Positions 19,519 to 50,613 of a stretch of 64,000 nucleotides of DNA are shown here, piece after piece; positions within the stretch are counted from its first letter, which is position 1, and each line of letters begins with the position of its first letter. The notes under the pieces are model-generated. The model made no database searches. It was not told the origin of the DNA and saw only the letters and a program-made list of their open reading frames with translations. Origin of the DNA: Leucoraja erinacea (lineage: Eukaryota). The stretch is taken from the NCBI RefSeq assembly GCF_028641065.1, contig NC_073406.1, forward strand, positions 8,184,001 through 8,248,000, written 5' to 3'. The translations under genes were made by a program, and so were the position numbers.

Positions 19519-19539
19519 CTTACATGGATAGCCTTGAAG
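19519..19539 (+). CDS. CAMTA1: CAMTA1 21-nt cassette microexon LTWIALK
   Basis: tcactttgcaag|CTT ACA TGG ATA GCC TTG AAG|gtaatt; phase 0-0; branch-like TACTAAT at 19489-19495. The peptide is recalled from vertebrate CAMTA isoforms. Confidence 0.9.
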
Positions 19540-22668: not shown

Positions 22669-22743
22669 GAGCAGTCTGTTGACCAAGAAACAGGATCAAG
22701 CTGCACGGAAAATTATGCGATTTCTCCGCCGTTGTCGTCACAG
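22669..22743 (+). CDS. CAMTA1: CAMTA1 coding exon SSLLTKKQDQAARKIMRFLRRCRH
   Basis: Acceptor tgtttcag|G, donor AG|gtgaga; phase 2-2. Confidence 0.96.
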
Positions 22744-28398: not shown

Positions 28399-28429
28399 CC
28401 CCCTGGTGGACCGTAGACTGTACAAAAGG
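28399..28429 (+). CDS. CAMTA1: CAMTA1 31-nt frame-switching cassette exon (S)PLVDRRLYKR
   Basis: ttttgctgccctaag|C CCC CTG GTG GAC CGT AGA CTG TAC AAA AGG|gtgagt; matches recalled SPLVDHRLYKR. Confidence 0.92.
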
Positions 28430-28814
28430 GTGAGTGTAGCCTTCTGCTGGCCAGCTTCTCTCTATTCTGCTTGGTGCCTGCTTGCATGGGGCTGCAGCCT
28501 AACCTGCCAATTCTCCCGTTTGTCGCCTACAAATAAACTAACACTCAACACGATACTAACAAATCTGCTTCTTAAAGATACAATTTTTATTTTATCGACA
28601 TATATATAGTTATATATATGGTAAATGATTTCAGCAGTTATTTTGTAATGCATGAACCAGAATGACACTTGCGATGAATTGTGGAATGCTGGATGGTTCG
28701 AAACGCATCCAGGAATTATCCGATAAAAATGTATAAGTCGGAACTCAGTTGGCTCATGGGAATTTACACCGAGGTTCTAAGGAAAGGAGAAGTCGAGCAA
28801 AACCAGCCGAATGA

Positions 28815-40020: not shown

Positions 40021-43000
40021 TCATAAATTATGTTTTGGACTATTCATGGAAGAAATTATTTAATCTGGGAGCATATTCATTGTGGGTTTACATGTGGGAT
40101 AACAGATACTTTGAACTTCAGACTTAGTGGACCCTGAGCTTTCTTTAGTCAATAGAGTCTTTTGTGGGACGAGGGCTCCCAAACAAGGCTGAGATTCTGC
40201 CGGGTTAAGATGGAAATCTGAACCGTGCAGCCAAGTTCAAGCTGCAGCTGACATCTGCTGATGCGGTCTCTCTCAACACTGATAGCGTCTCGATTGGAAC
40301 CTGCAAGAGTGCAGATAGACAGGGCCAGCTGCCAGCTTCTTTAAAGTGGTAGTGGATGAAAATGTGCCCAGAGAGGAAGGTGCAAATCTTGAGTTACTGT
40401 TGGATATTACAGAGATCGCCAGATTACTATTCACATCTGGGGTCATAAGAACTCTGTTTGTGGAGTAACTGTTTTGGGGTGCCCCTCATGGAAAGGTTGG
40501 GTCGAAGCTGGGCTACAATGTTGGAAAATTAAGTTTCAAATGTAGTACGTACCTTGGACTCAGTCTCCAAATGAAAACTGAATCTTAGGATGGAATTTAC
40601 CATTAATGAGCCATATCCCGTTAAATGTGCTTTATTTGCCTGTAGCCTGGAAATTGCTGTGATTGATGCATTCAAATCAAATTTCTTACACTGCAAATAG
40701 AATGTGGGTGTTAAACCGTGTTATATAAACACACTGATTCCTCCGTTAAACGAGAAAGAGACACAGAATGTAAAACAACCTTCAATATCCTTTCTATGCC
40801 TTAGTTGAATTGGTTTGTATTGGTGGATTCACCAGGATAGATCATTTGGAAGGGATTTCTGTGACTGGTGGGCTGTCGGTGTTGAGGCTAGCTGACCATG
40901 AACTATGTACATTGCATTAAGCTTCAGTAGTCCTGTCCACTCCTTTGCTGCACTCTGACTTGGTCATTCACAAGTGCCACCCACATGGAAATCCAAAGAA
41001 AACTTCCTTTTAAAAAAATGATTCAGAGTCAGGAAAACAAACCGTTGAATCTAACAACACCCTATGTTCTGGATGGTGTTAAAACAAATAATTATTGCAA
41101 AGGACTGTGGTTTTATTTTTCCAGATTGGTGAGCTGAAAGTCCGATTCTTTCCTTAGATGTTATGACACAAATGAAAATAACGCAGACATTTTTCTAATT
41201 TCGGATTTAATCTCTATTTAAATGACAAAAGACACATATATAAATGTTGTTAGCCTGATGTGATGTTGGTACTTTTGTTGATTCTTGTACTGATCTGAAT
41301 GCAAAAATTAGTTTCACTGTACCTCGGTACATGTGACAAATGAAGTATTATACCAAAGTAACAAACTCTTCAGAAATATCCCTGCCACTATTTTAATCCA
41401 ATGCGTTTGTGCCTTTGATAAGACAGGAGGCAAAGAGATCCATCCAAGCACATTATTATTGGCTCAATTTCGGCAATTATAGATATAACGAGGGGCTTTC
41501 ATTCCCAGAATGAGTTGGGAAAATATAGATCCCACACGGATTCTGCTCTGTGAAGCACTGTAGATTGTTCACATCAACCAAAGGTGATCCTTGCATCGTT
41601 GATCACAGTCAGCTCAGTTTCCATGAGGAGCTCATGAGGAACTAACTCCATCCGAGTGTCAATTCTTTGTGTCCAGTCTCAGCCTAATGTGAGACCAAGC
41701 ATGAGTAAATGCAAGTAATTCAGCATTTCTGGAAGAATGTAGAAAGGCAAATTGTCCTGCACGTGGTTAACTTTATCAATACCCAATATGACATCGGACA
41801 CAAAAAAAAAACAATCAAACCAAAACAACGGGTTCCTCTAAAACACTTTACTATGGCTATCCACAGCGCACTGGGAGAAAAGAAAACCACATTTGCTGGA
41901 GTCTTAGAGCTGAACCCTTACATACGCGGAGGGAGGTAATAATCTATTACAACTTTCCATCTCAAAACTGTACTGTCATTCTGTCACTCTGCTTGTACTT
42001 ATTTGGTTGATGCTGCAAACCGATACATTTCCGGTTGTATTATTCTAAGACATCTTTATTCCTGTAACATGTATGTTGTGGACTGGCTCGGTCCAAGAGT
42101 GAGCCTCGTCTGTGCAGACCAGCGGTTTTCAAACGTAACTCTGGAGCTCCTCGCTGTTTCAGTCCCGGGGATAGTCACCGCCTCGGAGGACCGCATCACA
42201 ATAACGATGTGTCCTTCAGGCGTCCCTGTATTATTGACAAGCTGAAGGATCCTCTGTAAAGACCGAAGCATTTCTTAAATACTGACAAAAAAACTGGCTG
42301 CTTCCCTGGGAGGCAACTATTTACTAAGAGAAGCAACTGGGGAAGAACTATTTCCACACTCCCAGACCCCTGCACTAATACGTTGCTATGCAGGATTCTT
42401 TCAAAAGCCTTGACCCACATCCAACTGAACAATGTTTTTTTGTTCTAAAAAGATTATTTTTGTACTTGTGATTAATTAAATTAATAAATCCAGAAACTGA
42501 GAGAGATCCTCTGACAGTAGAGACACAACGTTGTCACTTTGTCGATCTCTTCATGTGGGAGCGCTCCAGTTTGAAAACCTACGGTCTACAGAGCAGAAAT
42601 GCTATCTAAGTCATGCACTTGTTAAGATAATGTTTCATATTTAGGCCTGTGGAATTGCTCTGAGATATAGAGAAATAGAGGCTGATTACATGTGACATAC
42701 TGTAAGTCTGGCAAAGGTATGTGTTACAGAGCAGCTGCATGCTATTTACACTCAATACTACTCTGCTTATAAAGATGTGCATCCTTTTATGTCATTATTG
42801 AAATAATGAGCAAAACAATCAGAGATTTATCTAACGCCTGCACAGTGCCGACTAATTTCATTAAAACATTTCTAGGAACGTGGCAGTAAGAAAGGGCAAT
42901 TCAGCTCAGGAGTCGTTCAACTTTGTCAACGCCCTGGTCCACCTGCATTCTTCCCATCTATTTATCCTGAATCCTTGGTTGTCCTAACTAATGGAGTCAG

Positions 43001-43570: not shown

Positions 43571-43975
43571 TGATCCCAGTAAACACATATTTGCCCCTTG
43601 TGTTGCTGCCAACAAGTCCAGCATTGATCCTTTCTTTGATATAAATGACCCCTTCCAATGCCTTACTGCCATAACCTCTGGAGGAGCACCCAGCGGCAAT
43701 TAATGAAGACTGGCCGTGGACAAACATTGGGCAAAGACAGGATTGGGATCCAATGTCCCTGATATTGAAGAATCTGTTAATAGTCCTGTATTAGGAATAG
43801 CCACGTAGGACAGGGAGCATCCAATCAGGAAAGAACAGTAATAAGAAGACTCGAATGATCAAGCTTAGTCATTTGTAGTTTATCTGGTGTGCGTGTCGGA
43901 GGGGGAGGCGGGGAGTTGTATTATGTGAAATATGTTGTCTAATATCTTTCTGAATGAAATATTGTCTATTTTTAG

Positions 43976-43997
43976 ACCTAGTGCGTTTAAGCAAACA
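43976..43997 (+). CDS. CAMTA1: Candidate CAMTA1 22-nt microexon (R)PSAFKQT, or 16 nt from the acceptor at 43982
   Basis: Branch-like CTAAT at 43939-43943, then tctatttttag|ACCTAGTGCGTTTAAGCAAACA|gtgagt; open frame after exon 22669-22743; length 3n+1 like the 31-nt exon. No transcript evidence. Confidence 0.5.
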
Positions 43998-46441
43998 GTG
44001 AGTAACAGTAAGTTGTGCAGCGAGAGCTGTTAATGGAACAAATCACCAGCAACACAGATGCTTTTGTGTGCCTGACTTGGTTCACAATGATACTCTTCAC
44101 TCCATTGAATGTTTAAAAATGTCATATTTGTCCTAATCGCCAGTGCTCATCCCTCACCGTACCGATTCGTACAAAAGCAACCAAAAGGGAAAATCGCAGC
44201 CTTCTCGTGCTGTCGGCATCATCTTTCGCCCCTTTCATCAGCACAACTAAAATTAGATTGGATTGTTATCTGCACTTAGCAGTGATATCCCTTTCCCAAT
44301 GTTTGCCTGGCCAGTTCTAGAGTTGAAGAGCCAATGCTAACAAACTATGGGCACCAACACACCTTGTAGGAACAGACGGAGCAGTAGATGCATCAGCATT
44401 TAAGGATTGCCCAGGGGCATAAAAGTCTTTTGGTTGAGAGAGCAGGGGGAAGACTGAGGAAAGATAAAGATTGGTAGCATTGAATGTTGGAGATGGTTTG
44501 ATGAGTGTTGATTTGAATTTAAGGGATGATGAGACACAAATCAAGCAGTAATTTGCAATGGATTTGATTTAAAGCAAATTTAAAAAAGGATATGCGTTAA
44601 ATTTGCTGTGGGTTTATCGGTCCCTTGTTCAGAAAGTCCGGCACAATGCACCAAGACATTGGCACTTGTGCCTTTCTCCAGGATTTCTATTGACATCTGG
44701 CACAGGGAATCCCCGACAATCCTCTCTCAGTCGAAAATAACAGATAAGGAAATCAAACTGCCTGTTGACAATCGCGGAGCTTCTCTAATTGTGGCAGTGA
44801 AGGGGATAATTCACAGGATTTGACAAAATTGACAAAAAAAATAATTTTATCTCACCCCCAATTAGAAGATAGTTTGTTCACAGAGTGCTTGGAAACATGC
44901 TGAACTTTGCACTTGTTTGAAGTATTTAACCTCCTGCCCTTGGATCTTGTTTAACCTGTAGAGATGATACTGAAAGCAATCTGACATCTGCATCGTAAGG
45001 TTGTGATTCGGATCCTCCTATTGAATACCCTAATCAGGATTGTCATTCCAATATATTGCTGTAGGTGTGTTATAATGTATTGGATGATGTGTCTTAGAGG
45101 AGAGATTGAACTGTGACTGTCAGTTTTGTGAGGATGATGTAAAGGAATGTATGACTCTGTTCTTTACGTAATAAAAAGTCAGCACAGATGATTGGATTAA
45201 GGTGCAGGTCATCGTTGATCCCATTGAATGGGAAAGCCAGTAAAAGGAGTAAAAAAACAGCTCACCCACCCTTTCACCAGGGACAGCTAAGGCCCAATGT
45301 GTCACCCTGAAGTGTTCTCAGAGGGTTAGAAGGCTGATGGGATTGGGGGAAATCCATCAACAATTCTATCTCTGACACCAAAAGCCATTCCATCAACTCA
45401 TTACGCGTGCATGGATGCAGGAATGTTGGATCGACCTGGACTTGGATGCCATCTGCAGTAGAATAACCTGCTTGCTCATGCCGTTGTCATGAAGAATGGA
45501 CATTTGGAAAGCCAGTGAGAAGTTGCTGGGCTTGTGGGCCTGTGGTCCCAATCTATAAATAAATACAAGCCTTCTTGTTAAAGGCTCGGCGACATCTATT
45601 CCAGTCGCCGAGCCTTTAACATGAAGTACACGTCGCAGCCCAACGTGCAAAATTGATTTCATTTTAATCTCAACTAATTTGAAAATCATTGAATTTGTCT
45701 GAGTTTGGGATCTGAATTAATCACAGATGTTTAGGCTGCAAAGCTAATCAGGAATGTTTGCTGTGAATTGTTTGTTGATTAGTTCAGTGAAAACTGCCAG
45801 AGAAATCCAAGCCAAATTAATTATTTCAGAGTTTTCTGGGAAATGTTTTGTTCAAGTTGATGGAGTGATCTGTCACTCTCCAGAGCCCAATGCTAAAAAC
45901 CAAGACCTACCCCAGGGCACCTGTTGCAATGCCTATTTAACAGAGTTTCTGCTCACCACAGTGTTGTGACTGAGATTCTTTAGACGTCTCCATTCAAAAC
46001 TTGTCTATTGCACAGTTGATTGTAGGATAAAGGTGTCTCTACTCTGAGCTAACACTGTGACCACATTATATGGTACTTGAATCCCAAGATTGTTAAATTG
46101 CTTCCACAATGGAGGTAAACATTTGTCATGCAGGTCAAATTAGGTGTCATGTTGTGAACGATGTTACTGCCTGTGAAGCTAATGCCCATTAGAAGTATCA
46201 CAGTAGCACGCATGGGTGATTTACCACCATTGCTGCAAGATGAGTTTGATGTTCAAGTTACCCCCCTATATTCTAACTCACACAGCAGAACATACAACCA
46301 GAAGAGGTTATCAACTAGTTTGAGATCAGTCACTAATGATGTCTGTTGGCTTGTACAGTTCCACCAAGCTTTAGTGGTCTCCACGGTGCGTTAAAATTCT
46401 TGAAGTCCACAAGGGGTTTTCTGCCAGACGCTGAAAAACTG

Positions 46442-50094: not shown

Positions 50095-50549
50095 AGCTTT
50101 CATAATTACTTCTGCTTCCAGTTTTTTTTTAAGTGAAGTCAAATTCATGGTGATGATCAATTTGATCTTATTCTTGACCGATTAGTAATCTTGGGATATT
50201 ATCCTGCTGCCTGTATGATTGCAGATCTAATTGTACCAGTCTTGGGATTTGAGACCAGGGTCACATAGGTTAAAGTATAACTGATCGCATCACTCCATGC
50301 CATGACAATGATAACCATGTAATTTGCACTAATTTTTAAAACAGAGTTGTTGTCTTGTAAATATAAAAGACTTGAGTAGCCTCTTTCTGTGCGATATCAT
50401 TCTATGGTTGAAGCCTTTTCCCGACATTCTGTTACCTATTAACCAACAATGTTACTGGTTATTCCTTTGTTGACATGTCCTTGGTTTATAAATTGGGTCT
50501 AATATCGGTAACATAATGTTGTTCTTTTTGTTCCCCTCTCTTCCTTCAG

Positions 50550-50613
50550 AGTGAAAGAATTGAGAAAGGCCAAGGAACCTGAAGATTCACAGAAGCACCC
50601 CATAGCAATGTAA
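50550..50613 (+). CDS. CAMTA1: CAMTA1 terminal exon coding part: SERIEKGQGT* (TGA 50580-50582) or, when the 31-nt exon is skipped, (R)VKELRKAKEPEDSQKHPIAM* (TAA 50611-50613)
   Basis: Strong acceptor ttcccctctcttccttcag|AGT; both frames resemble recalled CAMTA1 C-termini. Confidence 0.94.

What the first reader, a model, noticed from the sequence alone, without database searches (positions are those of the whole stretch)
43930..44015. Candidate unrecognised microexon with tandem acceptors and tandem donors in the 22-kb last intron
Seen: CTAAT branch (43939-43943), then tctatttttag|ACCTAG|TGCGTTTAAGCAAACA|GTGAGT AACA|GTAAGT. Lengths of 22 or 16 nt are both 3n+1, like the 31-nt exon, and both are open after exon 22669-22743, giving RHRPSAFKQT-SERIEKGQGT or RHSAFKQT-SERIEKGQGT. 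Combined with the 31-nt exon they give an immediate stop (T* or CV*). The second donor (44008) gives RPSAFKQTVSNK*. Inference: a combinatorial C-terminal switch, possibly mutually exclusive with the 31-nt exon.
Basis: partly seen in the sequence, partly recalled or inferred. Interest (0 to 1): 0.7.

Follow-up and report, generated by a model that had tools for sequence, protein, structure and literature searches.

The report
Conserved hidden microexon in skate CAMTA1
In a skate's CAMTA1 gene, a short stretch of splice signals is unchanged in two close relatives while the DNA around it has drifted, so it is likely a tiny, seldom-used extra exon that would change the protein's tail, but no RNA carrying it was found.

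Summary
The window holds the 3' half of a skate CAMTA1 gene. The motifs, coordinates and translations reported are all correct. Two corrections: the '22-kb last intron' is split by an annotated 69-nt cassette exon (41867-41935), and a third possible acceptor (AG ending 43991) was missed. The motifs alone are at chance level. New support is conservation: DNA contigs of two close relatives show 47 differences in 901 nt, none from branch point to second donor (75 nt, 4.3 expected, P about 0.015) and one in a 184-nt island (scan P 0.008). Against: 0 of 458 CAMTA protein tails (45 from 17 shark and ray species) carry any predicted product, and 3 of 3 RNA contigs crossing the last acceptor lack it. 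Nothing supports mutual exclusion with the 31-nt exon 15.5 kb away. Best reading: a weak, seldom-included cassette microexon (0.35); rivals are a decoy exon, a non-splicing conserved element, or chance. The 31-nt tail switch itself is known, and this scan noted it before in an annelid; this candidate was not noted before.

The parts
43933..44116 (+). Conserved island: branch point, candidate exon and about 100 nt of downstream intron
   Evidence: 1 difference (44015) in 184 nt against 46 in the other 717 nt, two relatives pooled
43939..43943 (+). Candidate branch point CTAAT, branch A 34 nt before the first acceptor
   Evidence: no listed difference in either relative
43944..43975 (+). U-rich tract and first acceptor; AG-free zone of 58 nt (41 of 1732 AG sites in the interval have one this long); no UGC before this AG
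43976..43997 (+). Candidate 22-nt microexon (3n+1); alternative starts 43982 (16 nt) and 43992 (6 nt, in frame)
   Evidence: sequence; inclusion in RNA not seen
43998..44003 (+). First donor GTGAGT (weak exonic side, ACA)
44008..44013 (+). Second donor GTAAGT (would give 32, 26 or 16 nt)
22669..22743 (+). Upstream constitutive CAMTA1 exon (75 nt, ends in phase 2)
28399..28429 (+). Known 31-nt frame-shifting cassette exon; GCATG at +55 and +221 downstream
41867..41935 (+).
   Evidence: RNA contig of run X1 starts at 50548 as this exon's end predicts
50550..50613 (+). Coding part of the last exon: SERIEK-type frame stops at 50582, VKELRK-type frame at 50613

Best explanation
The block is likely a weak cassette microexon of skate CAMTA1 that is likely spliced in only seldom or in few cell types, and its 22-nt form would shift the last exon into the short SERIEK-type tail frame. 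Shown: the splice motifs, their conservation in two close relatives, and the frame arithmetic. Inferred: U2 would bind CTAAT at 43939, scanning would pick the first AG (43975), U1 would bind 43998 (or 44008), and the conserved 100 nt downstream would hold the regulatory sites. Without the 31-nt exon the 22-nt form would give a new 8-residue linker plus the SERIEK-type tail; with it, a stop within 1-2 codons that would cut the tail just behind the last calmodulin-binding region. It would act independently of the 31-nt and 69-nt exons, not in mutual exclusion.
For: Branch point, 58-nt AG-free zone, AG and two GT donors in exon-like order. 0 listed differences in the 75 nt from branch point to second donor (4.3 expected, P 0.014-0.015); 0 of 527 75-nt windows outside the island are free of differences; 1 difference in 184 nt, scan-corrected P 0.008. 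The island's 5' edge falls 6 nt before the branch point. Conserved flanks are a feature of alternative microexons (PMC4317164, passages). Of the three sense look-alikes in the gene body one is a real microexon. The same interval is alternatively spliced under RBFox1 in rat heart (PMC12713644, primers and section 3.6).
Against: No product in 458 CAMTA tails, among them 45 tails from 17 shark and ray species (46 of 98 cluster members could be listed). RNA contigs of X1, X3 and X6 enter the last exon at 50548, 50547 and 50547, as the 69-nt and 75-nt exons predict, not at 50550 as the candidate would; contigs drop rare forms. Motif alone at chance level. No UGC before the first AG and no GCATG within 300 nt downstream. 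Conservation rests on two relatives only 2-4% apart; 3 differences counted by the tool (2 in X19, 1 in X18) are not listed by place; the island is AT-richer and CpG-poorer than its flanks (2 CpG against 7 and 9), which lowers its neutral rate.
Confidence: 0.35

Rival explanations
1. Decoy exon: the spliceosome binds its competing sites but seldom completes inclusion, which would delay removal of the 8.6-kb last intron and hold CAMTA1 transcripts in the nucleus.
For: Decoys are conserved cryptic cassettes of 29-56 nt in introns over 1 kb, with junctions rare or unseen in normal cells and often several competing splice sites (PMC6097662, passages). Here: three AG, two GT, conserved, absent from annotation.
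Against: No retention of this intron seen: no RNA contig depth at 43757-46326 in three runs, apart from one repeat-like piece in X3 (contigs cannot show absence). The main form is shorter than described decoys.
Confidence: 0.17
2. A conserved element that is not an exon (enhancer or intronic protein-binding site) and holds splice-like motifs by chance.
For: More than half of the island lies downstream of the donors; look-alike motifs occur 1-3 times per gene body by chance; no RNA support.
Against: The 5' edge coincides with the branch point and all five splice dinucleotides are kept. No Rfam match and no unusual folding (z -0.84), so no structured RNA.
Confidence: 0.2
3. Chance: a pseudo-exon look-alike in a stretch that happens to have mutated little.
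Against: P 0.015 for the 75-nt core set from the motifs, 0.008 for the island after scan correction, under a uniform-rate model.
Confidence: 0.23
4. One reading: a regular C-terminal switch exon, mutually exclusive with the 31-nt exon.
For: Both are 3n+1 and double inclusion gives a stop.
Against: 15.5 kb and one further exon apart; stops lie 7-26 nt before the last junction; a regularly used exon should appear in some of 45 shark/ray tails and appears in none.
Confidence: 0.05

Closest known systems
CAMTA1 31-nt frame-shifting cassette exon (RefSeq isoforms of sharks, bony fish and tetrapods)
   Same: Same gene end, 3n+1 length, same effect on the last exon's frame, CTAAT branch point.
   Different: The 31-nt exon is annotated across vertebrates, has a strong donor, TGC before the AG and downstream GCATG; the candidate is unannotated, has weak donors and neither motif at its first AG.
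SRRM3/4-dependent neural microexons (3-27 nt)
   Same: Length; branch point set back from the AG; long AG-free zone; conserved flanks.
   Different: No UGC between branch point and first AG (found in 74-79% of such exons); frame-shifting; neural inclusion not shown. Only the 6-nt form from the third AG has TGC at -10 and keeps frame, but two AGs lie between it and the branch point.
Decoy exons (SF3B1 intron 4, OGT, ARGLU1; PMC6097662)
   Same: Conserved, cryptic, several competing splice sites, large intron, not in ordinary mRNA.
   Different: No intron retention shown; conservation tested only at 2-4% distance; shorter than described decoys.
Tetrapod CAMTA1 extra exons behind the 31-nt exon (GLNIFG-type and ISGKW-type inserts in RefSeq)
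   Same: Small cassettes between the 31-nt exon and the last exon that change the tail.
   Different: They return the frame to the VKELK-type tail; no detectable likeness to this block or to any part of the skate interval (best E 0.33).

Membership tests
Cassette microexon | AG and GT bounding 3-27 (or up to 51) nt with a branch point | tested here: met
Cassette microexon | Spliced into mRNA (junction reads on both sides) | tested here: inconclusive
   3 of 3 contigs crossing the last acceptor lack it; the one raw-read run has next to no CAMTA1 reads (depth 0.08); 0 of 458 protein tails
Cassette microexon | Exon and flanks under purifying selection | tested here: met
   but only in two close relatives
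SRRM3/4-dependent neural microexon | UGC between branch point and AG (usual, not strict) | tested here: not met
   absent for 43976 and 43982, present only for 43992; paper passages
SRRM3/4-dependent neural microexon | Neuron-specific inclusion that depends on SRRM3/4 | not testable with these tools
   no tissue-labelled reads
Mutually exclusive exon pair (with the 31-nt exon) | Steric closeness, docking structure or NMD of the double-inclusion form | tested here: not met
   15.5 kb apart; stops 7-26 nt before the last junction; docking structure not tested
Decoy exon | Conserved cryptic cassette with competing splice sites in an intron over 1 kb | tested here: met
Decoy exon | Host intron retained, retention needs the decoy's sites | not testable with these tools
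   needs nuclear RNA-seq and a minigene

The most novel reading that the evidence does not exclude
The block is an old, five-site microexon that adds a third independent switch (31 nt, 69 nt, 6-32 nt) to the CAMTA1 tail, able to shift the frame, cut the tail or add two residues by choice of site, overlooked in every annotation and possibly surviving in geckos, whose odd RefSeq tail matches the 22-nt form at DNA level with a one-base shift.
Probability: 0.08. Interest if true: 0.55.

Novelty: new member of a known kind. Interest (0 to 1): 0.27.

Why it matters
If real, it is one more small exon that rewrites the tail just behind the calmodulin-binding IQ region of CAMTA1, a brain and heart transcription regulator, and shows that annotation of shark and ray genes still misses conserved microexons. 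The principle (frame switching of the CAMTA1 tail by a tiny exon) is already in RefSeq, so the gain would be a new member, not a new mechanism. If it is a decoy instead, it would extend decoy-controlled intron retention to a last intron in cartilaginous fish.

Tried and rejected
No whole genome is held, so shark or ray orthologous introns could not be read. No RNA holder on record was listed; one raw RNA run of a relative was offered and has next to no reads on the last exon. Runs X9 and X10 laid nothing on the block: no evidence either way. The one metagenome match to a 20-letter pattern (L001) has unrelated flanks: chance. The 34-residue read-through frame over the block gave one hit at E 1.7e-4, a repeat protein with no matched stretch: rejected. 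Tetrapod extra exons show no likeness to the skate interval, by protein alignment or by a back-translated DNA profile (best E 0.33). Two gecko tails rank the first acceptor 9th of 1733 AG sites, but I picked them by eye from about ten odd tails, and plain read-through of the upstream donor is an untested alternative (likeness to bird read-through tails P 0.12-0.58): not counted as evidence. The Narcine four-residue tail does not map to the block (ranks 112-1246 of 1733). No Rfam family, no stable fold. The Camta1 microexon of PMC12868881 is frame-preserving, 3-9 residues, so not this one; it is likely the 21-nt exon (inference). Splice-site scores use recalled frequency tables, not MaxEnt.

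Full report
Context. The window holds the 3' half of CAMTA1 on the + strand. Exons match RefSeq proteins of skates at 97-100% over most exons, and a 70-residue intron read-through of a Leucoraja erinacea isoform matches at 100%, so the source is the little skate or a very near relative. No whole genome is held.

Observation. CTAAT lies at 43939, AGs end at 43975 and 43981, donors start at 43998 and 44008. Two things were missed. First, 28430-50549 is not one intron. Of 46 shark and ray CAMTA1 proteins that I could list (of 98 cluster members; 17 species), 21 carry the 31-nt exon plus a 69-nt exon, 6 the 69-nt exon alone, 6 the 31-nt exon alone, 6 neither, 6 other ends, and 1 stops before this region. 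The window encodes the 69-nt exon at 41867-41935. The candidate is 2.0 kb behind it in an 8.6-kb last intron. Second, a third AG ends at 43991 with TGC at -10, which would give a 6-nt in-frame or a 16-nt exon.

Chance level of the motif. With recalled splice-site frequency tables the candidate's first acceptor scores 1.8 and its donors 2.7 and 2.8; the real 21-, 31- and 69-nt exons score -3.2/4.0, -0.4/6.4 and 1.2/1.9. At thresholds that catch the real 21-nt exon, 47 kb of gene body gives 3 sense look-alikes, 3 antisense and 2.6 per shuffle (30 shuffles); with a 40-nt AG-free zone 2, 2 and 1.4; only thresholds fitted to the candidate give 1, 0 and 0.1 (this scan misses the real 31-nt exon). 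The motif alone is therefore no evidence.

Conservation. I laid DNA contigs of two related organisms (runs X19 and X18) on 43620-44520; both cover the block. Listed are 31 and 17 substitutions at 40 places and 7 insertions or deletions; 3 further substitutions counted in the pieces table are not listed by place (the tool lists only those away from contig ends). None of the 47 falls in 43933-44014 and one (44015) in 43933-44116. For the 75 nt from branch point to the end of the second donor 4.3 are expected (Poisson P 0.014, permutation 0.015); 0 of 527 windows of that size outside the island are clean; a window of 184 nt with at most one event arises anywhere in 0.8% of 20,000 uniform placements. 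Runs X9 and X10 laid nothing. So constraint is likely but is shown only among close relatives.

RNA and protein. Contigs of three runs (X1, X3, X6) cross the last acceptor with 289 to 1974 further letters upstream and begin to match at 50548, 50547 and 50547. The end of the 69-nt exon predicts 50548, of the 75-nt exon 50547, of the candidate 50550. So X1 likely joins the 69-nt exon and X3 and X6 likely skip all cassettes; none carries the candidate. Contigs drop rare forms, repeats crowded the joint and loose-end tables, and the only raw-read run (X22, 6% read) had depth 0.08 on the last exon, so rare use is not excluded. Among 485 proteins fetched, 458 hold the motif that ends the 75-nt exon; none carries SAFKQ or any other predicted product, including the short stop forms and the third-acceptor forms (one carp tail shares three residues only).

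Mutual exclusion. The branch point is 15.5 kb from the 31-nt exon's donor with the 69-nt exon between, so there is no steric block. Stops made by double inclusion lie 7-26 nt before the last junction and by the 50-nt rule (established knowledge) would not trigger decay. A docking structure was not tested. I rate this reading 0.05.

Regulatory motifs. The 31-nt exon has GCATG at +55 and +221; the candidate has none within 300 nt, has no TGC close before its first AG, and has 9 YCAY in 300 nt downstream (not tested against shuffles). No Rfam match; folding z -0.84.

Literature seen. PMC12713644 (passages and section 3.6; supplement unreadable): RBFox1 changes Camta1 splicing in rat heart; its primers match the start of the 75-nt exon (21 of 25) and of the last exon (25 of 26) by my comparison, so it assays this interval. 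PMC12868881 (passages, one supplementary file): a frame-preserving Camta1 microexon affects neuronal gene timing. bioRxiv 10.1101/2024.09.17.613571 (passages): UGC in 74-79% of SRRM3/4 microexons, not strictly needed. PMC4317164 (passages): conserved flanks of alternative microexons, less so for frame-shifting ones. PMC6097662 (passages): decoy exons. PMC5314398 (one passage): primers only. Searches found nothing on this candidate.

Mechanism and odds. A real cryptic exon of some kind totals about 0.57: seldom-included frame-shifting cassette 0.35, decoy 0.17, regular mutually exclusive switch 0.05. Non-splicing conserved element 0.20; chance 0.23. Shown: motifs, conservation among close relatives, frame arithmetic, absence from listed annotation. 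Inferred: recognition by the spliceosome, inclusion, tissue, any effect on the protein.

Verdict. A fair but unproven microexon candidate at the end of a gene whose tail switching by small exons is already annotated. New member of a known kind; interest 0.27.

Noticed in passing
window 41867-41935: 69-nt cassette exon read in two frames. The frame used after the 31-nt exon is identical in 21 of 21 shark and ray proteins, the other frame varies at 2-3 residues among 6, which suggests the first frame is the selected one. No such insert was seen in the bony-fish or tetrapod tails listed.
   Followed up: partly
window 19519-19539: 21-nt in-frame microexon between the IQ exons, with CTAAT branch point and TGC at -6; present in 101 and absent in 44 of the 157 proteins then held. 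Likely the Camta1 microexon of PMC12868881 (inference).
   Followed up: partly
P0250, P0251 (gecko RefSeq isoforms): Two geckos share an odd 12-residue tail whose codons fit the 22-nt candidate with a one-base shift (rank 9 of 1733 AG sites); read-through of the upstream donor is equally possible.
   Followed up: partly
P0149 (Narcine isoform X5): Tail ends four residues after the 75-nt exon; no matching exon placed in the window.
   Followed up: partly
window 43937-43946 and about 50497-50506: The candidate's branch point and that of the last exon share the same 10 letters around CTAAT; the rest of the two acceptors differs.
   Followed up: no
tetrapod proteins, e.g. P0048, P0063, P0064, P0077: Tetrapods carry their own extra inserts behind the 31-nt exon (a short one, a longer one, and a form spanning both) that return the frame to the long tail; in some lizards the block is frame-shifted.
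   Followed up: partly
window 28430-28606: Open frame running on from the 31-nt exon into the intron, annotated as Leucoraja isoform X1 (100% over 70 residues).
   Followed up: no
P0262, P0094: CAMTA1-named proteins that carry a PF00957 (synaptobrevin, name recalled) match, likely read-through models into a neighbouring gene.
   Followed up: no
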